This document shows positions 4,803 through 14,927 of a stretch of 38,146 nt of DNA, piece by piece (within the stretch, counting starts at the first letter, position 1; each line of letters starts with the position of its first letter). Source of the DNA: a virus (Duplodnaviria; Heunggongvirae; Uroviricota; Caudoviricetes); IMG/VR virus record IMGVR_UViG_2695420714_000020, one strand, 5' to 3'. Both the position numbers and the translations under genes were made by a program. Under the pieces are notes generated by a model. It had not been told where the DNA came from and did no database searches. It worked only from the letters and a program-made list of their open reading frames with translations.

Positions 4803-5624
4803 ATGCACCACGGAATTCATCATTTCCATGGGACGCCTGTCTGGGGAAGTGCTGGCGACGTTCATCGTATTGCGGTGAGCGGAGCTGGCGCTTTCGTCTC
4901 CTATGTACGGCCAGATCAGATTGCGGCGTCCATTCAGCACGCTCAGGTCGTCGGCATTGATAACGGCGCATTTTCTGCATGGGTGCGTGGGCTAAAAATT
5001 AACTGGAGTGATTTTTATAAATGGCTCCTGAACTATTACCACCATCCTAAGGTCGCTTTTTTTGTCATTCCTGATGTTGTGGACGGAGGTGAACGTGACA
5101 ATGATGCCCTGATAAACGAAGTTCCGAAAATGTTCTACGGGAAGGCAACTCCCGTCTGGCATCTGCACGAGTCAATCGATCGGCTTATCGAGCTATGTCG
5201 TGAATGGCCTCGTGTCTGCTTTGGATCTTCTGGTGAATATGCGGCTATCAGAACTGCGCACTGGCATCGTCGTATGCAGGACGCTTTTGAAGCAATTTAT
5301 TGCCGACACAATTTCAAAACAGCTGTTCATGGTTTGCGCATGCTTGACGGTCGTGTGTTGGGAAATTACCCACTGGCGACTGCCGACAGTACAAATCTTG
5401 CCTGCAATGTCCCCAAATTTAATAGCAAATATCCTGAGCTGACGCGGGCTATTCAGGAGGCTGAGTATTCGCGCAATCTGACGGAAAAGGAGCTGAAAGC
5501 TGTCATTCTGAAAAACCGTTGCGCAATTTTAAAAGGTGCAATTGAAGCTGTTCGCCCACCTTCAGTTTCTGATTGGCTGTCGAATGGTTTGCAGCCTTCA
5601 CAGCTCGAACTGGAGATTGCGTAA
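4803..5624 (+). CDS. Conserved hypothetical protein coupled to dam and gpA; possible TGT/DpdA-like fold (unverified)
   Basis: GTG 4794 overlaps the dam stop (GTGA); first ATG at 4803; its stop TAA overlaps the gpA ATG (TAATG). Motifs IDNGAF and [11 protein letters not shown] resemble, from memory, the DSGGF and FDE regions of tRNA-guanine transglycosylases; no zinc-binding Cys cluster. Confidence 0.5.
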
Positions 5625-7996
5625 TGAACTACAGCTATTCCTGGAATGCTGAGAAAAAAGCAATCAATCCTTACGTAGAGACAGAAGAGCAATCTTCAGT
5701 TTCTGCGCTTTCAAACCTGATCGCTCTGTACGCTGCCGATAACGAGCAGGAACAGCTGCGCCGCGAGGCACTGAGTGATCAGGTCTGGGAGCGTTATTTC
5801 TTTAATGAATCCCGTGATCCTGTCCAGCGCGAAATGGAGCAGGATAAGCTCATTAGTCGGGCAAAGCTGGCGCATGAGCAGCAGCGTTTTAATCCAGATA
5901 TGGTCATTCTGGCGGACGTCAATGCCCAGCCTTCCCATATCAGCAAGCCGCTGATGCAACGTATTGAATACTTCAGCAGCCTGGGCAGGCCAAAGGCTTA
6001 TTCCCGCTATTTGCGTGAGACGATTAAGCCATGTCTGGAACGGCTGGAGCATGTACGCGACTGTCAGCTATCCACTTCTTTTCGCTTTATGGCAAGCCAT
6101 GAAGGGCTGGACGGCCTGCTGATCCTGCCTGAAATGAGTCAGGATCAGGTGAAACGCCTGTCCACCCTGGTAGCTGCGCATATGAGCATGTGCCTTGATG
6201 CAGCTTGTGGCGATTTGTATGTCACCGATGACGTTAAGCCAGAAGAAATCCGCAAAACATGGGAAAAGGTGGCAGCGGAAACCCTGCATCTGGATGTCAT
6301 CCCGCCTGCGTTTGAGCAACTCCGCCGGAAAAGAAACCGCCGTAAACCCGTGCCCTATGAACTCATTCCGGGTTCGCTGGCGCGTATGTTGTGCGCTGAC
6401 TGGTGGTACCGGAAATTATGGAAGATGCGTTGCGAATGGCGGGAAGAGCAGTTGCGTGCTGTCTGCCTGGTCAGCAAAAAAGCATCTCCCTATGTCAGCT
6501 ATGAAGCCGTGATGCATAAACGTGAGCAGCGCCGTAAGTCGCTGGAGTTTTTTCGTTCTCATGAACTGGTGAACGAAGACGGCGACACGCTGGACATGGA
6601 GGATGTGGTAAACGCCAGCAGCAGCAACCCTGCGCATCGCCGCAATGAGATGATGGCCTGTGTTAAAGGCCTGGAGCTTATCGCGGAAATGCGCGGTGAC
6701 TGCGCCGTTTTCTACACCATCACCTGTCCGTCACGTTTCCATTCCACGCTAAATAATGGCAGGCCCAACCCAACTTGGACAAATGCGACGGTAAGACAAA
6801 GCAGTGATTATCTGGTCGGCATGTTTGCTGCATTTCGTAAGGCGATGCACAAAGCCGGATTGCGGTGGTATGGCGTGCGGGTGGCTGAGCCGCATCATGA
6901 CGGTACAGTTCACTGGCACCTGTTGTGTTTTATGCGCAAAAAAGACCGCCGCGCCATCACTGCATTACTGCGTAAGTTTGCCATCCGTGAAGACCGCGAG
7001 GAACTGGGCAATAACACTGGGCCGCGCTTTAAGTCTGAGTTGATTAACCCGCGCAAAGGTACGCCAACAAGCTACATCGCGAAATACATCAGTAAGAACA
7101 TTGACGGGCGTGGTCTGGCTGGCGAGATCAGCAAGGAAACGGGGAAATCCCTGCGTGATAATGCTGAATACGTTAATGCCTGGGCGTCTCTGCATCGTGT
7201 TCAGCAATTCCGCTTCTTTGGCATTCCGGGGCGTCAGGCTTACCGTGAACTGCGATTGCTGGCTGGTCAGGCGGCAAGGCAACAGGGGGACAAAAAAGCA
7301 GGTGCGCGGGTACTGGATAACCCGCGCCTTGATGCCATCCTGGCTGCTGCTGATGCTGGTTGTTTTGCTACCTACATCATGAAGCAGGGCGGCGTACTGG
7401 TTCCCCGCAAATATCACCTCATCAGAACCGCTTATGAAATCAACGAAGAGCCGACCGCCTATGGCGATCACGGCATTCGTATTTATGGCATCTGGTCACC
7501 TATTGCAGAGGGCAAGATCTGCACTCATGCCGTGAAGTGGAAAATGGTTCGTAAGGCCGTTGATGTTCAGGAGGCGGCAGCCGACCAGGGCGCTTGCGCC
7601 CCTTGGACTCGTGGCAATAACTGTCCCCTTGCTGAAAATTTGAACCAACAGGAGAAAGATAAATCAGCTGATGGGGACCCCAGAACGGACATTACCAGCA
7701 TGGATGACAAGGAGTTGCACGATTACCTGCACAGTATGAACAAAAAAGAGCGCCGGGAACTGGCTGCAAGGGTACGCCTGGTGAAACCGAAACGGCGTAA
7801 AGACTACAAACAGCGAATTACAGACCATCAGAGACTGCAGCTCGTCTATGAGCTGAAGTCCAGAGGATTTGATGGTAGCGAGAAAGAGGTCGATTTACTC
7901 CTTCGCGGCGGCAGTATTCCGTCAGGAGCAGGCCTGCGTATCTTCTATCGGAACCAGCGTTTGCAAGAAGATGATCAGTGGCGGAACCTGTATTAA
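5624..7996 (+). CDS. A: Replication initiation endonuclease gpA (rolling-circle nickase)
   Basis: 790 aa from ATG 5624; P2 A-like size and position, with central region [11 protein letters not shown]...[12 protein letters not shown]. Start overlaps the stop of the upstream gene. Confidence 0.85.
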
Positions 7997-8090
7997 TTTC
8001 GCGGGTTAACAATTCGTGCTCTTAATAATACCAGGCATATCAGGCTGATGAACGTAAAAAAACGTTTTACATCAGTAAGATTATTATATA

Positions 8091-8106
8091 CTGTAAATAT
8101 AAACAG
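8091..8106. promoter_or_regulatory. LexA (SOS) box CTGTAAATATAAACAG
   Basis: Perfect CTGT-N8-ACAG palindrome 45 bp upstream of the 8151 start, overlapping a candidate -10 (TATACT 8087..8092). Confidence 0.7.
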
Positions 8107-8150
8107 TAGTTATACATACAGTATTGCGTGTGGTGTCATAGGAGGAAAGA

Positions 8151-8338
8151 TGCAGGACTATTTTTTGGAGTCTTTGAAGCTCCAGCGCATTGATTTTTTT
8201 CTTAAGCTTGTAGCGGCTAGTGAGTGTAGTGATGAAGAGAAGGGGCTGGCTCTGCAGTGGGTTTCTGAATTGACTGATGAACTCATGGCAAAAATCAGAA
8301 CCCACGAATACAACCGCTCAATGGATGTCATCAGCTGA
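8151..8338 (+). CDS. SOS-inducible small protein, candidate Tum-like antirepressor (62 aa)
   Basis: Strong ribosome-binding site AGGAGG before ATG 8151; downstream of the LexA box; located after gpA as tum is in 186. The ORF-track N-terminal extension (8048) would cover the promoter, so the shorter start is used. Confidence 0.5.
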
Positions 8339-8348
8339 GGTGACTTTT

Positions 8349-8582
8349 ATGCGCATTGAAATAATGATCGATAAAGAGCAGAAGATTAGCCAGTCTACCC
8401 TGGACGCCCTTGAATCCGAGCTTTACCGCAATCTGCGCCCCCTGTATCCCAAAACGGTAATTCGTATCCGTAAAGGTAGCTCTAACGGTGTGGAACTGAC
8501 CGGACTGCAACTGGATGAAGAAAGAAAACAAGTGATGAAAATTATGCAGAAGGTGTGGGAAGACGACAGCTGGCTGCATTAA
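8349..8582 (+). CDS. DinI-family protein (77 aa)
   Basis: MRIEIMIDKEQ...ALESELYRNL...GLQLDEERKQVMKIMQKVWEDDSWL parallels E. coli DinI (MRIEVTIAK...ETWESADDW) in length and motif order. Second gene of the LexA-boxed operon. Confidence 0.7.
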   Translation: MRIEIMIDKEQKISQSTLDALESELYRNLRPLYPKTVIRIRKGSSNGVELTGLQLDEERKQVMKIMQKVWEDDSWLH

Positions 8583-8591
8583 GAAACGTTG

Positions 8592-8619
8592 CCCCCAAGA
8601 GGATTTATCCTGTTGGGGG
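8592..8619 (+). terminator. GC-rich hairpin after the tum/dinI-like operon (CCCCCAAGAGGAT-TT-ATCCTGTTGGGGG)
   Basis: 12 of 13 bp stem immediately after the stop at 8582; weak T-tract afterwards (GAGTTTGGG). Confidence 0.4.
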
Positions 8620-9070
8620 GAGTTTGGGCAACGAGTGAAATGAGGTGTAAGGTGGGCGGTCATTTTGATAAGTGATCGTCCACTTTGTGTCAGAACCTGA
8701 TGTTTGTTGTACATTCGGACGAATAGGCGGCGTTGTTTGCTTTAAAAATAAAACAGGAACACTTTGAGAAAGTGAACAGGTGTATTTATTTGTTGCTGAT
8801 GAATGAGAGTAACTCTAATTTGGATAATTAGCTTGATAATAGGTCAGACGAAAATAATATTCCAGCACACTTTTGGTCGCAACAGGCATTAGTTAATTTT
8901 AAGTGATAAATTTTTATCCATAAATTAACACTAGTGTGTCATCTAGCGAAACCGAATCGCTTTAACTCATAACTTGAAGTTGAATCAGTGGGGTAGCAGT
9001 AGGCATGCCGGAACTGATAAACTGTGCAGAAGGCTAAACATTCATTCACTCGTGAGATAGTAGCTAAATT

Positions 9071-9937
9071 ATGCAAAGAATTATTCCTGATAAAAATTGG
9101 TGGGAAAAAGAGCGTATTAATCGTAAAGCATCATCAATATGCCCATATGCTAGTTCATACAGATGTCCTCGATACTATCAGAGTGTAGTTTTGCTCTCAA
9201 GCATCAATGTGATAGCTGGTATGGCAACTAGGAAAGAAAAAGAGTTGGGTGAATTTTGGGAAAGAACCACTTTCTCATCTTTATGTGATGAAGAAGTCCC
9301 TACAGTTACTACAAAAGAATATGGCGGCCTTGCATCAGTTAGTAATTTTTGCCCAGAAATATCATTTAGATATTTACACTACTACGCCGATTATATGTGT
9401 AAATATGTTGATGAGATAGATCAGGACACTGGCAGGCGTATTGCGGAAAAAGATAATTTAGAAAATGATTGGAAATATACATGGATGTCAGTCAATCCTA
9501 AATTTTATTTAGATTGCGATGTTTTTGAAAGTGTCAAAAATTTCAATGAAGAATTGGCTAGTGATTACTTAAAAAGATTGCACCCAAATATCGTTCAGCA
9601 AATAGATAGAATGAATAATTGCTTGGATAATAATGATCCGGCAGGTGCACTGCACGCAGCCTCTAATATTTTAGAAACTATGGCTAAGGAAATCACTCAA
9701 AACCCGAATGTGGCAAATGAGTCATTGGGTGGTTTTTTTAAACAGTTCGAAAAAATGTCAAAATTACCTAAGAATCTTATTGATGCTGTTAAAGATATTT
9801 ATGATTTACGCAACAAATTACCTACTGCTGGACACGGAAGCTTGAACAAGCCTGAATTGACTATGGTAGAAGCTATAACTATTGCGGCAATGACAAAGGC
9901 GATTTTAGAAATTGAATATCGAAGCAAAGCCATCTAA
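9071..9937 (+). CDS. Orphan accessory protein, 288 aa, unknown function
   Basis: AT-rich ORF in the accessory region after about 430 bp of AT-rich non-coding DNA containing the palindrome GATAAATTTTTATC. No motif recognised; weak ribosome-binding site. Confidence 0.55.
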   Translation: MQRIIPDKNWWEKERINRKASSICPYASSYRCPRYYQSVVLLSSINVIAGMATRKEKELGEFWERTTFSSLCDEEVPTVTTKEYGGLASVSNFCPEISFRYLHYYADYMCKYVDEIDQDTGRRIAEKDNLENDWKYTWMSVNPKFYLDCDVFESVKNFNEELASDYLKRLHPNIVQQIDRMNNCLDNNDPAGALHAASNILETMAKEITQNPNVANESLGGFFKQFEKMSKLPKNLIDAVKDIYDLRNKLPTAGHGSLNKPELTMVEAITIAAMTKAILEIEYRSKAI

Positions 9938-10186
9938 CAAACCAAATTATGTGGTTCAAATTCCCGCTACACTTCTGTGTTGCCGCCAGCGTCTACTTAT
10001 CGCTGTGAGTTCAACGGGTGATGATGCGTTAGAGATCTCTGAATCGATTGAAGTCTAAGGTTGTCAGGGCTGTAACAGCAGCCCTGTGTCATGAATGGAT
10101 TGCATATTAATTGACGAAGAACAGACTAATATCATCGATAGCTGTTTTCAAAAATAGACCAATAACAAACTGAGATGTTATCGTAT

Positions 10187-10840
10187 TCATTTCGATGATT
10201 GATCCAGATGTGTATATAACCATTGAAAGAGTTTTCTAATTTTTGTGATAGTATCTTTTAAATAATTTAAGGAGATTATTATATTATTTTCATTGTTTAA
10301 TGAAAGAGTAGGTGTTTTATCAATGATATTTTTTAAGGCTACAGCTGTGCTCATTTTTTTAATGTCTCCATTAGCATGAACTATGCAATTCCTTACTTTG
10401 TTAAACTCTGTCATGAATTGCCACTCTTGTGACAGGCCAAAGTTTATATCCATTAATTTTGTTAAATATCTTTTTGCTTTGTGGATGCCATCACCATTAA
10501 AATCGGTTACTGATATATTGGTGTTTACAATCCTTTGACATATATTGCAATAGTCGTTTAGGTTGTGCTCTAAGCATGAGTATAAAGATACCAAAGCAGA
10601 TTTATTAAAAATATTTGGTTGTATGTTAACTAAGAAATCATATTGCTCTGAATAATAGTCTTCTAAGTAATTAATATAATCGTCAGGAGCATTCTTTTTT
10701 TCATCTTCATATGCTTTTTTTAATTCCGCTAAGTTAACTCTGTTTTGGCCGCCTGCTCCTAGGATATATTTTTCGAAATCATCAATCTGCGCTTCAAGTG
10801 AATATCTTGATAGCTGTGCGAAAAGTTTGTATTTACTCAT
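10187..10840 (-). CDS. Accessory protein, 217 aa, with candidate HEPN motif (RNCIVH)
   Basis: AT-rich ORF convergent with 9071..9937. Residues 150-155 RNCIVH match the R-x4-6-H HEPN signature in its common RNxxxH form. Confidence 0.55.
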   Translation of the reverse strand: MSKYKLFAQLSRYSLEAQIDDFEKYILGAGGQNRVNLAELKKAYEDEKKNAPDDYINYLEDYYSEQYDFLVNIQPNIFNKSALVSLYSCLEHNLNDYCNICQRIVNTNISVTDFNGDGIHKAKRYLTKLMDINFGLSQEWQFMTEFNKVRNCIVHANGDIKKMSTAVALKNIIDKTPTLSLNNENNIIISLNYLKDTITKIRKLFQWLYTHLDQSSK

Positions 10841-11183
10841 CGGTATGCCATTCCTTTTTAATTATAAACCTTTGGATTAAAAGGTGCTGAAAATAGTAAC
10901 TCATTATTTTTGTTTGTAAAGGGGGTATTGTTTTTACTAGATCAAGATAAAACAATGGGAATATCCGCTTTTCGCTCACAGCGGACTTTCATCTTTGTAA
11001 ACCCGTATGATTAGCTTTTCAGCGGTCATTCAGATACGGATTTACGCTTCCCTTGGCTGTGCATGACTATGACGCATGAGATCGCATGATCGTTAGAGGA
11101 TCGTTTTTGCTGAGGCCAGCCAGAACTGGCGTGCTTTTGCTTATGTCGTGCAGGTGCATGAAAACCACTACATAAAGCGGGCA

Positions 11184-11202
11184 GGCGTGGCGGGGATACG
11201 AT
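11184..11202. other. cos-like cohesive-end site (GGCGTGGCGGGGATACGAT followed by TGCGCGCT)
   Basis: Resembles, from memory, the 19-nt cohesive ends of P2 (GGCGAGGCGGGGAAAGCAC, then TGCGCGCT) and 186 (GGCGTGGCGGGGAAAGCAT). Lies in the region between A and Q where the P2 cos is found. Confidence 0.5.
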
Positions 11203-11229
11203 TGCGCGCTAGGTATAAGTGTGTAAAAT
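11202..11229 (+). promoter_or_regulatory. Candidate promoter for the ATPase-HNH operon (TTGCGC-N16-TAAAAT)
   Basis: Sigma70-like elements about 45 bp upstream of ATG 11271, which has a GAGAGGG ribosome-binding site. Confidence 0.35.
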
Positions 11230-11270
11230 AATTCCAAAATAAATCATCCTAATGAAGTGAGAGGGTAATA

Positions 11271-12920
11271 ATGTTAGTCAAGAAAAATAAAAATTATAGT
11301 TTATATTTTTTAATTACAAATAATCAACAGATATCTGATTCTGGTAATTATATAAAAATAGTCCCATCAAGAAGCGATTGGAATGATTTTGGATATTTGA
11401 GTAGAGTCGAAATATCTATTTTTAATAAAAAAGAGTGTAAGGATATAATTTCACTGAATGGTTATATTGGTTTTTTGAATTCAGAGGAGGAACGAAATGG
11501 AAAAGCAGAACTGATAAGGCGAGTGAAGAAAAAGGAAGAATCTAATTTAAAGGATGAGGGGTTTAATGATTATTTTGTCATGCTTCAGGATATGAATAAT
11601 TATCGAAGACTAGTAAGATTTTTTGGGGTGAATGAATCCAAATATATATTAAATTTCATTAATGATGTTGTTTCTAAGAAAAGTGACGCTAGTGCAGAGA
11701 ATTTGAGGAAAAAAGCAATCTCTTCTGATATCTTTAATAAATCTTTCATTAGAGAGTCTGAGTCGTATTTTACTTTCAAAAATGCAGGAACAGTTCTTTC
11801 CGGTATTCAATATGAGGAGTTGGGTAATTTATCACAGCACATCAAGATTAGCTATTCGAATAAAGTTAATGAAGAAGATGTATCTTATGTTTTTAATTTT
11901 GATCACGAGCATGATTTACCAAAAAGAATTTCCATAATTATAGGCGAGAATGGTGTAGGAAAAAGCCAAACGCTTAGAGAAATCGCATTGGCTGCGATTA
12001 AAGGAAAGGATAATTTGGTGGCTGTAGTTGATTCTAACGGTGTGAGCATTGAAGAACGAATTCAAATTAGTAGGCTCATTGCTTTTTCTCCAACAAATGA
12101 AAGTAAGTGTTCATTTCCAACCGATAAAAGAATAAAATCATTGATATGGTACAAAAGATTGACTTTAAATCGTGAATCAAAATCCAAATTAAACTTGAAT
12201 GATTTAATAGTGCAACTAGCGAGGAGTAACGACGCTATCGGCTATAATCAAAGGTGGAATATATTTGTTGATGCACTGAGTGTTCTAAATAGTAACAACG
12301 ATTTAGTAATCAAATGTAGCGGTGAAAATTCACCATTTGTTAAATTAAATGAGCTTAATTCTCGAGGCGAAGAATCCAGACTATCATTATATTCTGAAAT
12401 TATTCTCTCTGGCGAGCCTTTGAGGCTTGTTGAAAATAAATGTTACCCTTTGAGTAGTGGGGAAATATCGTTTATTAAGTTTTGTGTACAAGTCTGTTTG
12501 TATATTGAGAATGGGACTCTTCTATTAATAGATGAGCCAGAAACACATCTCCATCCTTCATTTATTAATAAATTTATGGCATTGCTTGATAATTTATTAG
12601 AAAAGACAGGCTCTTCAGCTATCATAGCAACGCATTCGGTTTATCTTGTTCGGGAGGTTTTTAAGGAGCAAGTGACAATACTCAGAAGACGAGATGATGG
12701 GGTAATTGTTAGCGAAAAACCGAGATTGAGTACTTTTGGGGCGAATATAGGAAATATCTCATATTTTGTTTTCGGTGAGAGTGAACCAACTCAAATTTTA
12801 AATAAAGTAAAAAATAATATAATTGCAAAGAATATGTCTTGGGATGATGTTGAATCTAAATATAGCGAGGACTTATCACTTAATGTATTAACTGCGTTGA
12901 GAAATGAAATAGGTAATTGA
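11271..12920 (+). CDS. ABC-type ATPase with ~215-aa N-terminal extension (candidate defense ATPase, PtuA-like)
   Basis: 549 aa. Walker A GENGVGKS (aa 225-232), ABC signature LSSGE (394-398), Walker B LLLIDEPE (417-424), H-loop ATHS (453-456). N-terminal 215 aa have no recognisable motif. AT-rich. Confidence 0.7.
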   Translation: MLVKKNKNYSLYFLITNNQQISDSGNYIKIVPSRSDWNDFGYLSRVEISIFNKKECKDIISLNGYIGFLNSEEERNGKAELIRRVKKKEESNLKDEGFNDYFVMLQDMNNYRRLVRFFGVNESKYILNFINDVVSKKSDASAENLRKKAISSDIFNKSFIRESESYFTFKNAGTVLSGIQYEELGNLSQHIKISYSNKVNEEDVSYVFNFDHEHDLPKRISIIIGENGVGKSQTLREIALAAIKGKDNLVAVVDSNGVSIEERIQISRLIAFSPTNESKCSFPTDKRIKSLIWYKRLTLNRESKSKLNLNDLIVQLARSNDAIGYNQRWNIFVDALSVLNSNNDLVIKCSGENSPFVKLNELNSRGEESRLSLYSEIILSGEPLRLVENKCYPLSSGEISFIKFCVQVCLYIENGTLLLIDEPETHLHPSFINKFMALLDNLLEKTGSSAIIATHSVYLVREVFKEQVTILRRRDDGVIVSEKPRLSTFGANIGNISYFVFGESEPTQILNKVKNNIIAKNMSWDDVESKYSEDLSLNVLTALRNEIGN

Positions 12921-12921
12921 A

Positions 12922-13785
12922 ATGAATAAATTAAAAAGACCTGTTTTTAAAGATTATTCTGCATTTAAAAAACTATCTGCAAATAAGAGATTAAAACATC
13001 ATTCTGTTCTGAATGGACAGGATACATTTATACTTAATGCATATAGATCGTACATAAAGAATAAAGGATATCTTAATGTCAATTCTTGTGGCGTATTGAG
13101 TAACAATATTGCTGAAGCTTTGAAATATTATTATAACAATCCCGCAAAGTGTTTATCTATAATTGATGATATAAGAGCAGCTAATTCTAACTCTCTATGT
13201 CCAATGTGTGGTTCAATGCATAGCGGGACTTTGGATCATGTTTTACCCAAGGAAAACTATCCAGAATTTTCTTTATTCACTAAGAATTTGGTTCCTGCTT
13301 GCAAATGTAATACTTTCAAAAGTACTACTATAGCTAATTCTGCAGGCCATCGGATGCTGCATCCATATTTTGATAATATATTAAAACAAAGATTAATATG
13401 TGCTAATTTTTCTAAATTAGGGCGAACACCTACAATTGATGTAAAAATCATAATTGACCCAATGTCACCAGAATATAACAATGTTAAGTATCATCTTGAT
13501 AATGTTGTTATCAAGAATAATATTAAGGGGTATTTGTCTGAACAATGGGAGTCGTTTTACTTATATCCTGAGCTTGTTATTAGAGGACTGAATAAGAGTC
13601 TTTCTACTTATAGCGATGTATATGAGTTGTTGACTCGCGAGTTGTTGCTGTTGGATGAAAAACATAAAGGTAAAAATAATTGGAATTCGGTTTTTGTAGC
13701 TGGGTTAATTCGACCTGATGTGATTAGGTGGATACTCTGTGAATTACATTTAGGTAACAGAAGTCCAGACGGTCGTCTCATATGA
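12922..13785 (+). CDS. HNH-motif nuclease (candidate effector, PtuB-like)
   Basis: 287 aa. CPMCGSMHSGTLDHVLPKENYPEFSLFTKNLVPACKCN (CxxC...DH...N...CxC, aa 93-130). ATG is 1 nt after the ATPase stop, so the two genes are coupled. Confidence 0.65.
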   Translation: MNKLKRPVFKDYSAFKKLSANKRLKHHSVLNGQDTFILNAYRSYIKNKGYLNVNSCGVLSNNIAEALKYYYNNPAKCLSIIDDIRAANSNSLCPMCGSMHSGTLDHVLPKENYPEFSLFTKNLVPACKCNTFKSTTIANSAGHRMLHPYFDNILKQRLICANFSKLGRTPTIDVKIIIDPMSPEYNNVKYHLDNVVIKNNIKGYLSEQWESFYLYPELVIRGLNKSLSTYSDVYELLTRELLLLDEKHKGKNNWNSVFVAGLIRPDVIRWILCELHLGNRSPDGRLI

Positions 13786-13795
13786 TTTTTTGCAT

Positions 13796-13821
13796 CTTCA
13801 GCGTGTATCTGCACGCTGAAG
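13796..13821. other. Perfect 10-bp inverted repeat CTTCAGCGTG-N6-CACGCTGAAG between the HNH gene and portal gene
   Basis: Perfect stem with 6-nt loop between convergent gene ends; no U-tract on either strand, so not a canonical intrinsic terminator. Confidence 0.4.
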
Positions 13822-13892: not shown

Positions 13893-14927
13893 TTAAGTAG
13901 CTAGTTTATAACTATCAAATTTAACAATGTTCTCACTTACCAATTTATTTATTTCCATCATTCTTTTTTGTAACGGTATTAACTCGTTACGTACAAACAC
14001 CAGGCTCGCCTTCTCCACATCCCCAAACCCCCCGACATTATTAGGCATAATCCCCATCATTTGCGGTGGCACACGATGCGCCGCCATCATGTCATCCCGG
14101 CTCACGTTCTTGATGTTCAGAAACTCATCCTTCGCCGCGACTTCTGACAACGGGATGATCTGAAGCCCGTCCTTTTTGCCGTTAGGCGAGTACATAAACA
14201 GATTGCGGAAGTTACCTGGTCCTTTGGCGCTTTTCATCGCATTGCGGAGGTTGTTCACATCCTCCTGGTTTTGCGCGGCATCGGTCATGTACATGATGAA
14301 GCCTGCATGACTGCCGTTAATGTAATACTTTCGGCGGAACAGCGTGGCGGACTCGTTGAGCAGGGCTGACGGAATGGCAGAAAGGTAACCTGGCAGGCCG
14401 TAGATCTCCTGGTTGATGTCCGGTTCCATCAGATGAAAAATGCTGCCTTTCGTGAACTGATACGGCTGGGTTGTCATACCGTATTGCACAAACCAGTAGG
14501 TATCCAGGTCTAACCCGCGTCGGGTGTATTTTGCCAGAGCAGGCTCAAGAGCGATGACCTCTCCGAACCGGTTTGTGCGTTTCTCCAGGTAAGCGTTACC
14601 AAATACCAGATAATCCTGCACAAAACGTGAAAAAGCCTGCTGGCTGAGCAGCGGGTGAGGGATGTAGGTACTGGTCAGAATGTTGCACTTTACTGCAATC
14701 GGGGAGCTATGATGTACGGCAGCGCGGAAGGTTCGCGCCAGTCCGTCAAAACTCACTGGCGGCTCATACCAGCGATCTGTCTGTACGCATTCCACATAGT
14801 CCAGTAGTTCACGGCGGTCCAGAACCGGAACGGGATCGCCGAAGCTGAATGCTTCGGCTGAAGCCTGGTTTTTATGCTGGATCTGTTTCGTCGACGCAGC
14901 GCGGTTTTTCTTAATCTTTCCCATCAA
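13893..14927 (-). CDS. Q: Portal protein gpQ
   Basis: 344 aa, identical in length to P2 Q; start overlaps the terminase stop; leftward late operon. Confidence 0.9.
   Translation of the reverse strand: MMGKIKKNRAASTKQIQHKNQASAEAFSFGDPVPVLDRRELLDYVECVQTDRWYEPPVSFDGLARTFRAAVHHSSPIAVKCNILTSTYIPHPLLSQQAFSRFVQDYLVFGNAYLEKRTNRFGEVIALEPALAKYTRRGLDLDTYWFVQYGMTTQPYQFTKGSIFHLMEPDINQEIYGLPGYLSAIPSALLNESATLFRRKYYINGSHAGFIMYMTDAAQNQEDVNNLRNAMKSAKGPGNFRNLFMYSPNGKKDGLQIIPLSEVAAKDEFLNIKNVSRDDMMAAHRVPPQMMGIMPNNVGGFGDVEKASLVFVRNELIPLQKRMMEINKLVSENIVKFDSYKLAT

What the first reader, a model, noticed from the sequence alone, without database searches (positions are those of the whole stretch)
8640..9937. Orphan 288-aa cargo gene behind an AT-rich palindromic leader
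After the tum/dinI-like terminator there are about 430 bp of AT-rich non-coding DNA with palindromes (for example GATAAATTTTTATC near 8905) before a 288-aa ORF with no motif I can recognise. Composition and position mark it as horizontally acquired cargo, not core phage. The long leader could hold a regulated promoter or a small RNA. Its convergent arrangement with the 217-aa gene suggests two independent single-gene modules, not a toxin-antitoxin operon.
Basis: seen in the sequence. Interest (0 to 1): 0.6.

Follow-up and report, generated by a model that had tools for sequence, protein, structure and literature searches.

The report
Prophage HEPN defence gene, new sensor domain
The "orphan" 288-aa gene is a real, mobile, single-gene candidate anti-phage protein in the known P2 defence hotspot; it joins an AbiJ-type HEPN RNase domain to a widespread, unnamed four-cysteine domain with no match among solved structures, and the palindromic leader is not special.

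The parts
9071..9937 (+). ORF288 coding sequence (288 aa plus stop): a two-domain candidate defence protein
   Evidence: ORF list. 63 homologue clusters. dN/dS 0.21-0.34. Annotated as hypothetical protein WP_032317446.1 in an identical E. coli prophage.
9071..9580 (+). N-terminal domain (aa 1-170): alpha/beta, four invariant cysteines. Codons: C24 9140-9142, C32 9164-9166, C94 9350-9352, C149 9515-9517. Other conserved motifs: NFCPE, DEID, DW+xW.
9584..9934 (+). C-terminal HEPN domain (aa 172-288), Abi_C/AbiJ-like
9674..9688 (+). E202-x3-K206 motif in HEPN helix 2
   Evidence: Invariant in 60 of 60 family members. Matches the Ex3[KR] feature of HEPN domains (PMC3710099).
9809..9835 (+). [quoted passage not shown]
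   Evidence: Among 60 sequences: R in 58, N in 51, H in 57, G256 in 57. The position agrees with the published HEPN description. Helix boundaries H234-249 and H265-285.
8953..9070 (+). Proximal upstream region that travels with the gene (probable promoter/5'UTR; promoter not pinpointed)
   Evidence: 84% identical to the whole intergenic spacer in the Salmonella prophage copies. 8993-9070 is still alignable in NCTC9064.
8685..10170 (+). 1.49-kb block shared with lambdoid prophages: distal leader, gene and trailer
   Evidence: 95.6% identity with 6 gaps to L002.
8892..8929 (.). Imperfect 38-bp palindrome containing GATAAATTTTTATC (8905-8918). Judged not significant.
   Evidence: 17% of shuffles give an equal perfect arm. 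Absent from L003 and L004.
9935..10004 (+). Conserved 3' flank that travels with the gene
   Evidence: 85% identity in the Salmonella copies.
10020..10099 (+). Fragment matching the 3' end and downstream hairpin of a small site-specific integrase gene; a recombination scar between the convergent genes
   Evidence: 92.5% match to the end of integrase WP_001564475.1 in E. coli CS18F.
10187..10840 (-). ORF217: neighbouring, independent single-gene HEPN module (context only, not part of ORF288)
   Evidence: PADLOC RTasHEPN 1e-5 over aa 122-164, with motif RNCIVH. UniRef name 'RiboL-PSP-HEPN'. Occurs alone in other prophage slots.
11271..13785 (+). Adjacent two-gene candidate system: AAA_21 ATPase (549 aa) plus HNH (287 aa), PADLOC PDC-M01A/B, Septu-like (context only)
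   Evidence: PDC-M01A 2.4e-55. PDC-M01B 8.2e-34.

Best explanation
ORF288 is a self-contained, horizontally mobile, single-gene anti-phage (abortive-infection-type) protein carried as cargo in the P2 defence hotspot. Its architecture follows the AbiJ logic: an N-terminal sensor/regulator domain joined to a C-terminal HEPN RNase.

Inferred mechanism. In uninfected lysogens the N-terminal four-cysteine domain, probably metal-binding, keeps the HEPN domain inactive. A phage-derived or infection-induced cue acts on the N-domain. HEPN domains then pair to form the composite R...H active site and cleave RNA without a metal cofactor. Translation and phage replication stop.

Shown here: a real gene under selection; the HEPN fold with an intact conserved catalytic motif; the modularity of the N-domain; the defence-island and prophage-hotspot contexts; independence from its neighbours.

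Inferred only: defence activity, RNase activity, RNA target, trigger, metal binding, and the sensor role of the N-domain.
For: 1. Location. The gene lies between DinI and portal gpQ in a P2-like prophage, at 33-37% GC against about 53%. This is the published P2 defence hotspot, and the arrangement is listed there.
3. N-domain modularity. It is present in 655 representative clusters. Of the 150 best representatives, 148 tails fall into 43 unrelated groups. These include TIR_2 (19), TIR (11), Pycsar-type TIR (5), DpnII-MboI REase (3), PLD (2), Schlafen, SEFIR, kinase and GGDEF. One N-domain-only gene overlaps a downstream TIR gene, a split version of the fusion. This is the pattern Anantharaman et al. 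2013 described for AbiJ-NTD1-5.
4. Contexts of homologues. Between Lamassu LmuA/LmuB and Gabija-like genes in E. coli NCTC9064. Next to GT4-conflict and DUF4145 genes in a Salmonella prophage. Next to PDC-S31/DUF2971 and ParDE in Vibrio. Between NACHT and KAP NTPases in Pseudomonas. Next to TIR, FRG, Mrr, DUF4365 and integrase genes elsewhere.
5. Single-gene autonomy. The neighbours differ in every context, and ORF217 is never linked to it outside this prophage type.
6. Purifying selection: dN/dS 0.21-0.34.
Against: - No experiment exists. Its accession was not found in the full text of the held paper library or in the held supplements of the three defence-screen papers checked (one of these had no supplements held).
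- No PADLOC model matches the protein beyond a weak PDC-S32 hit, E 0.0099.
- The Pfam Abi_C hit is below the gathering threshold.
- The R-to-H spacing is 7 residues, outside the canonical Rx4-6H.
- The N-domain is unusually well conserved for a phage sensor and has invariant acidic residues (E74, E96, D114, D117). It could itself be catalytic or cofactor-binding rather than a sensor.
- In lambdoid prophages the commonest allele carries an amber stop at codon 115. The gene is therefore dispensable, and perhaps costly, there.
- The full-length AF2 model is only moderate (pLDDT 72.5), and the loop around H255 has low confidence.
Confidence: 0.6

Rival explanations
1. The conserved N-terminal four-cysteine domain is itself the enzymatic or toxic core, for example a metal- or Fe-S-dependent nucleic-acid enzyme. 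The C-terminal HEPN, TIR or REase modules would then be accessory or second effectors, not the N-domain's output.
For: The N-domain is far more conserved than its partners, at E 1e-40 to 1e-56 across 25-30% identity. It has invariant acidic residues E74, E96, D114 and D117 alongside the four Cys. 58 of 212 proteins are essentially N-domain only.
Against: Its fusion partners are almost all known effector domains, which argues that the N-domain supplies input rather than output. Many of the 'stand-alone' forms carry a conserved basic amphipathic tail that could itself be a mini-effector. No structural similarity to any known enzyme fold was found.
Confidence: 0.12
2. It is a selfish addiction or toxin-like module, or a prophage-benefit factor that does not act by abortive infection. 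In this reading the HEPN RNase activity serves element maintenance or regulation rather than anti-phage defence.
For: HEPN domains are common toxins of toxin-antitoxin systems. The gene sits next to ParDE or zeta-toxin genes in some contexts. An amber-inactivated allele is widespread.
Against: No conserved partner or antitoxin gene accompanies it in any context. There is no MNT or other antitoxin-type neighbour. The repeated neighbours are defence systems.
Confidence: 0.1
3. ORF288 and the convergent ORF217 form one two-gene system of two HEPN proteins acting together.
For: In E. coli complete genomes ORF217 is found only in the 9 genomes that also carry the P2-borne ORF288. The Rousset supplementary file lists the pair retained with a different third system.
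Against: ORF288 homologues in lambdoid prophages, NCTC9064, Salmonella, Vibrio, Pseudomonas and others have no ORF217 homologue nearby. ORF217 homologues in Salmonella diarizonae, Morganella and Enterobacter have no ORF288 homologue nearby. The two genes are convergent, with an integrase-fragment scar between them.
Confidence: 0.05
4. The long AT-rich leader (8640-9070) encodes a small RNA or a palindrome-operated regulated promoter specific to this gene.
For: There is a 38-bp imperfect palindrome at 8892-8929 with local hairpin z of -2.4. A 9/12 sigma-70-like site lies at 8833-8860. The distal leader is co-transferred with the gene between P2-like and lambdoid prophages.
Against: The co-transfer is recent (92-100% identity), so it says nothing about selection. 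More distant copies share only 78-118 bp upstream. The count of promoter-like sites equals the shuffled expectation. An equal perfect arm appears in 17% of shuffles, and fold z-scores are near 0. No Rfam family matches.
Confidence: 0.08

Closest known systems
AbiJ (Abi-859) family of Lactococcus abortive-infection proteins; Pfam Abi_C HEPN with AbiJ-NTD1-5 (Anantharaman et al. 2013, PMC3710099)
   Same: A single polypeptide of about 280-300 aa with a variable N-terminal domain and a C-terminal HEPN carrying an RN....GHG-type motif and Ex3K. The N-terminal domain is reused with TIR, REase, PLD and kinase effectors. Found in mobile elements and defence islands.
   Different: The N-terminal domain is none of the five AbiJ-NTDs that have Pfam models: no hit in 150 members. 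It is alpha/beta with four invariant Cys and has no structural match. The Abi_C score is below threshold. The R-H spacing is 7.
Taranis (Vibrio cholerae superintegron Abi_C protein; bioRxiv 10.1101/2024.07.02.601686)
   Same: An experimentally validated single-gene Abi_C/HEPN defence protein on a mobile cassette, showing that AbiJ-like proteins defend Gammaproteobacteria.
   Different: The N-terminus of Taranis is described as distantly related to AbiJ_NTD5. ORF288 has a different N-domain.
Prophage-borne HEPN defence proteins such as HepS (Gifsy-1; PDB 9oik) and Tha (S. aureus prophages)
   Different: No sequence similarity. Those systems sense phage tail proteins through other regions, and they have no four-cysteine N-domain.
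P2 old/tin and other cargo of the P2 gpA-gpQ hotspot (Rousset et al. 2022, PMC9122126)
   Same: The same genomic slot and the same logic of swappable defence cargo. This arrangement is catalogued in that paper's supplementary file 6.
   Different: The proteins are unrelated. This arrangement was listed there only as 'hypothetical' genes, with no test of it found.

Membership tests
HEPN superfamily | Four-helix up-down bundle with an insert between helices 2 and 3 | tested here: met
HEPN superfamily | [quoted passage not shown] | tested here: met
   R247 in 58/60, N248 in 51/60 and H255 in 57/60. R247 lies in the last turn of helix 234-249 and H255 in the loop, as described in PMC3710099.
HEPN superfamily | Canonical spacing Rx4-6H | tested here: inconclusive
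   The spacing here is 7 (RNKLPTAGH). The true Abi_C relative P0188 has 6 (RNVHGTGH). This is a one-residue insertion relative to that family.
HEPN superfamily | Acidic residue in helix 2 as Ex3[KR] | tested here: met
   E202 and K206 are invariant in 60/60.
HEPN superfamily | Metal-independent RNase activity | not testable with these tools
   Needs biochemistry.
AbiJ / Pfam Abi_C (PF14355) | Match to the Abi_C model above its gathering score | tested here: not met
   18.8 bits against a cut-off of 24, E 0.0017, aa 227-279. The 97%-identical cluster representative P0001 carries a precomputed PF14355 hit, and P0188 scores 53.8 bits. This is a divergent relative, not a formal member.
AbiJ / Pfam Abi_C (PF14355) | N-terminal domain is one of AbiJ-NTD1-5 | tested here: not met
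   No AbiJ_NTD Pfam hit for the window protein at E<=1, nor among 150 N-domain proteins at E<=0.001.
AbiJ / Pfam Abi_C (PF14355) | Architecture: variable NTD plus C-terminal HEPN in one polypeptide, with the NTD shared with other effector domains | tested here: met
AbiJ / Pfam Abi_C (PF14355) | Abortive-infection phenotype against phage | not testable with these tools
   Needs a phage challenge.
P2 defence-hotspot cargo (Rousset 2022) | Located between gpA/DinI-like gene and portal gpQ next to cos, with variable content between otherwise similar prophages | tested here: met
   Rep gene 5573-7996, DinI to 8582, cargo 8640-13800, portal 13893-14927. Full-length block in only 17 of 5,426 E. coli genomes. 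Listed in the paper's supplementary file 6.
Type II / HEPN-MNT toxin-antitoxin pair | Conserved co-oriented partner (antitoxin/MNT) gene adjacent to the HEPN gene | tested here: not met
   The neighbours differ in every context and there is no conserved small partner.
Any catalogued defence system (PADLOC-DB 2.0) | Significant match to a system model | tested here: not met
   Only PDC-S32 at E 0.0099, 13.6 bits. PADLOC hits of N-domain relatives lie in their TIR/SEFIR tails.
Cys4 metal-binding (Zn or Fe-S) domain | Four invariant cysteines; bound metal | tested here: inconclusive
   C24, C32, C94 and C149 are invariant. In the wider superfamily each is usually followed by Pro (CP motifs).

The most novel reading that the evidence does not exclude
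The N-terminal 170 residues define a large, so far unnamed domain family (at least 1,092 clusters across Proteobacteria, Desulfobacterota, Nitrospinae, Acidobacteria and Verrucomicrobia). The domain has a fold not seen in solved structures and a four-cysteine, possibly Fe-S or Zn, centre. It would serve as a general infection-sensing or switch module of bacterial immunity, wired interchangeably to HEPN, TIR, SEFIR, REase, PLD, Schlafen and kinase effectors and to a short membrane-active tail. ORF288 would be the E. coli-tractable entry point for finding what it senses.
Probability: 0.4. Interest if true: 0.75.

Novelty: new variant of a known kind. Interest (0 to 1): 0.58.

Why it matters
If confirmed, this adds a new input domain to the set of modular bacterial immune proteins. 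The domain is widespread, absent from Pfam, NCBIfam and PADLOC, and has no match among solved structures. It is carried in an E. coli prophage, where it can be tested at once. Because the same domain drives many different effectors (HEPN, TIR, REase and others), identifying its trigger would explain a whole class of single-gene systems. A metal or Fe-S centre in an immune sensor would be mechanistically unusual. The gene also shows how P2-hotspot cargo is exchanged with lambdoid prophages and chromosomal defence islands.

Tried and rejected
- Sequence searches of the full protein and of both family profiles against PDB found nothing meaningful.
- NCBIfam gave no hit. PHROGs gave only a weak HEPN-part hit, phrog_9704.
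- tblastn against 50,697 deposited phage genomes found no match.
- Rfam on 8300-11400 at E<=1 found nothing.
- The promoter/terminator scan was no better than shuffles for promoters. I could not pinpoint a convincing sigma-70 promoter in the conserved 118 bp.
- Palindrome and RNA-structure tests of the leader were chance-level (a first script timed out).
The family alignment gave 14 loci from one strict pattern.
- I looked for the gene in the held supplements of DefensePredictor and Rousset 2022 (the 2026 NAR P2/P4 paper had none held). It was found only as 'hypothetical' neighbours in a Rousset supplementary file.
- I checked whether the Vibrio integron systems Esos or Taranis are this family. 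No sequences were available, so this is unresolved.
- The two-gene system with ORF217 was rejected on distribution.
- Identity of the N-domain with AbiJ-NTD1-5 was rejected: no Pfam hits.

Full report
**Setting**

The window is a P2-like prophage of E. coli. The replication gene (5573-7996) is followed by a small ORF and a DinI-like gene ending at 8582 (Pfam DinI 1.3e-22). The portal gene lies on the minus strand at 13893-14927. Between them lies 5.2 kb of DNA at 30-40% GC, against about 53% in the phage backbone. It holds four genes:
- ORF288 (9071-9937, +);
- ORF217 (10187-10840, -);
- an AAA_21 ATPase of 549 aa and an HNH protein of 287 aa, which match the PADLOC candidate system PDC-M01A/B (2.4e-55 and 8.2e-34).

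Rousset et al. 2022 described exactly this gpA-gpQ interval as a hotspot of anti-phage systems in P2-like phages (PMC9122126). Their supplementary file 6 lists this arrangement, with all the cargo genes except the ATPase as 'hypothetical'.

**Checking the observation**

The ORF, the roughly 430-490 nt AT-rich non-coding leader and the quoted palindrome are all present at the stated coordinates.

The ORF is a real gene:
- 63 clusters of homologues, 286-296 aa long, occur in Escherichia, Salmonella, Serratia, Hafnia, Pectobacterium, Rahnella, Vibrio, Shewanella, Pseudomonas and other genera.
- dN/dS is 0.21-0.34 against copies 81-87% identical at the DNA level.

The palindromes are unremarkable:
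- An 8-bp perfect inverted repeat like the best one here occurs in 17% of shuffled leaders.
- RNA folding energies of the leader equal those of shuffled sequence on both strands.
- Rfam finds nothing.
- Promoter-like sites are no more frequent than in shuffles.

**What moves with the gene**

In 8 complete E. coli genomes the block 8685-10170 sits at 95.6% identity in a lambdoid prophage, between a DUF977 gene and a zeta-toxin gene. The distal leader is therefore part of a recently exchanged 1.49-kb block. More distant copies share much less:
- Salmonella prophage copies (87% protein identity) share only 8953-9070 upstream, which is their entire intergenic spacer, and 9935-10004 downstream.
- The copy in E. 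coli NCTC9064 (75% protein identity) shares only 8993-9070 upstream.

The distal leader with the palindrome is found in just 18 of 5,426 E. coli genomes. The functional unit is therefore about 118 bp of upstream DNA plus the ORF. Nothing supports an sRNA or a palindromic operator.

**The C-terminal domain**

An AlphaFold2 model built on 28 homologues has pLDDT 72.5 overall and 80-90 over residues 172-250 and 265-285. It gives a four-helix bundle with an inserted helix between helices 2 and 3.

The published HEPN hallmarks are present and conserved in 60 family members:
- E202-x3-K206 in helix 2 is invariant in 60 of 60.

The R-H spacing is seven residues, one more than the canonical Rx4-6H. 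Pfam Abi_C, the C-terminus of lactococcal AbiJ, matches residues 227-279 below threshold (18.8 against 24 bits). A more distant protein, P0188, has the same N-terminal domain followed by a true Abi_C domain (53.8 bits) with motif RNVHGTGHG. It aligns with ORF288 through the N-domain into HEPN helices 1-2. I therefore place the C-terminal domain in the HEPN superfamily as a divergent relative of the AbiJ/Abi_C family.

**The N-terminal domain**

A profile search of 1.84 billion representative proteins found 655 clusters, 552 of them at E<1e-10. Almost all match only residues 1-155. A second search found 1,092 clusters at 90% identity. All are 'hypothetical', and none has a precomputed Pfam domain covering this region.

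Conserved residues:
- Four cysteines (C24, C32, C94, C149) are invariant. In the wider superfamily each is usually followed by proline.
- Also conserved are W10, R34, W63, E74, E96, D114, D117, W134 and W138.

A metal site (Zn or Fe-S) is a reasonable inference, but I could not test it.

**Modularity of the N-domain**

Among the 212 N-domain proteins in hand, 148 have C-terminal tails of more than 60 residues beyond the N-domain. These tails fall into 43 groups unrelated by BLAST. Among the 150 best representatives the recognisable tails are TIR_2 (19), TIR (11), Pycsar-type TIR (5), DpnII-MboI REase (3), PLD (2), SEFIR, Schlafen, Abi_C, kinase-TPR and GGDEF. The junction always falls near residue 170-180.

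One N-domain-only gene overlaps a downstream TIR gene, which is a split version of the fusion. At least 15 of 151 representatives end instead in a conserved tail of about 35 residues, KPxxxG(I/V)x(L/V)Nxx...WW(L)RR.

A constant N-terminal module joined to interchangeable toxic effector domains is the pattern Anantharaman et al. 2013 described for AbiJ-NTD1-5. They proposed that those N-terminal domains act as phage sensors and intramolecular antitoxins. The domain here is none of those five, since no Pfam AbiJ_NTD model hits it.

**Genomic company**

Homologues of ORF288 sit in the following places:
- between Lamassu (LmuA 4e-196, LmuB E=0) and an ATP-dependent nuclease/helicase pair of Gabija type, in E. 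coli NCTC9064;
- after GT4-conflict and DUF4145 genes in a Salmonella prophage;
- after a PDC-S31/DUF2971 gene and beside ParDE in Vibrio;
- between NACHT and KAP NTPases in Pseudomonas;
- next to TIR, FRG, Mrr, DUF4365 and integrase genes in other genomes.

No neighbour is conserved, so the gene acts alone.

ORF217 is itself HEPN-like: motif RNCIVH, PADLOC RTasHEPN 1e-5, UniRef name 'RiboL-PSP-HEPN'. Its homologues occur as solitary extra genes in other prophage slots of Salmonella, Morganella and Enterobacter, with no ORF288 relative nearby, and the reverse also holds.

**Mechanism**

The best-supported reading is a single-protein, AbiJ-like abortive-infection system. The N-domain senses an infection cue and releases, or allows dimerisation of, the HEPN RNase, which then cuts RNA and halts the infected cell.

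Shown here are the fold, the motif, the modularity, the contexts, the selection and the autonomy. Inferred only are the defence activity itself, the RNA target, the trigger and the metal.

Three points count against a simple sensor role:
- The N-domain is strongly conserved.
- It has invariant acidic residues.
- Many proteins are essentially N-domain only.

A rival in which the N-domain is itself catalytic therefore keeps some weight.

A further caution comes from the lambdoid copies. They carry GAG to TAG at codon 115, inside the conserved DEID motif. The resulting fragments are seen on more contigs (over 700) than the intact protein (about 300). This would fit a costly gene that is often inactivated.

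**Novelty**

Cargo in the P2 hotspot is already known, and so is HEPN-based abortive infection with swappable N-terminal domains. What is new is this particular N-terminal domain: large, unnamed, absent from the domain and defence databases searched, and without a structural relative in the PDB. This gene family has also not been tested, as far as the literature available here shows. I rate it a new variant of a known kind, of moderate to good interest, mainly as an experimentally tractable entry to an unrecognised immune module.

Noticed in passing
L002:6388-7254 (E. coli ARS-C301 lambdoid prophage); corresponds to window 9413-9415: The lambdoid-prophage allele of ORF288 has GAG to TAG (amber) at codon 115, inside the conserved DEID motif. 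This splits the gene into annotated 114-aa and 150-aa CDSs. The fragments are on over 700 contigs, against about 300 for the intact protein. Possible counter-selection of a costly gene.
   Followed up: partly
window 10187-10840 (-): ORF217 is a second, independent HEPN-like gene (motif KVRNCIVH; PADLOC RTasHEPN 1e-5; UniRef name 'RiboL-PSP-HEPN'). It is found alone at the ends of lambdoid prophages and between the sheath and tail-fibre-assembly genes of a Morganella P2-like prophage.
   Followed up: partly
window 11271-13785 (+): A 549-aa AAA_21/ABC-type ATPase plus a 287-aa HNH nuclease match the PADLOC candidate system PDC-M01A/B and, more weakly, PtuA (Septu-like). PHROGs 8066 and 18937 match at E of 1e-209 and 2.2e-207 respectively.
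   Followed up: partly
window 10020-10099: An 80-bp block between the convergent genes is 92.5% identical to the 3' end and downstream hairpin of a small (about 200 aa) site-specific integrase gene. In other E. coli and Salmonella prophages that gene lies beside DUF4145 and other variable cargo genes. This block may account for many of the 623 E. coli records hit; one such hit was inspected. Looks like a recombination scar.
   Followed up: partly
proteins P0075, P0092, P0094, P0100, P0119 and others (N-domain superfamily): At least 15 of 151 N-domain representatives are about 200 aa and end in a conserved tail, (I/L)xE(L/V)KPxxxG(I/V)x(L/V)Nxx........WW(L)RR(R). It is basic and amphipathic and could be a membrane-active mini-effector or an interaction peptide.
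   Followed up: no
JGI contig of P0062 (no DNA held), genes at 1011-1673 and 1670-2377: An N-domain-only gene overlaps by 4 nt a downstream TIR_2 gene. This is a split form of the N-domain-TIR fusions.
   Followed up: no
L007:7118-7930, L008, L009 (Vibrio) and L040:4583-5410 (metagenome): A DUF2971 protein (PADLOC PDC-S31 in Vibrio, 8e-25) lies immediately upstream of N-domain genes in two unrelated settings. This could be coincidence within defence islands or a functional link.
   Followed up: no
proteins P0057-P0061, P0065 (Pseudomonas; L010-L013): A Pseudomonas subfamily keeps the ORF288-type N-domain (41% identity) but replaces the HEPN domain with an unrelated, unannotated C-terminus of about 130 aa. 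It lies near an SMC-like AAA_23 ATPase and a Trypsin_2 protease.
   Followed up: no
window 8048-8338 and 8277-8582 (+): The ORF finder extends the DinI-like ORF to 8277, overlapping the upstream small ORF (phrog_698). RefSeq annotates shorter, non-overlapping CDSs of 62 aa and 77 aa (locus L001 5568-5756 and 5767-6000), so the true DinI start is probably near window 8349.
   Followed up: no
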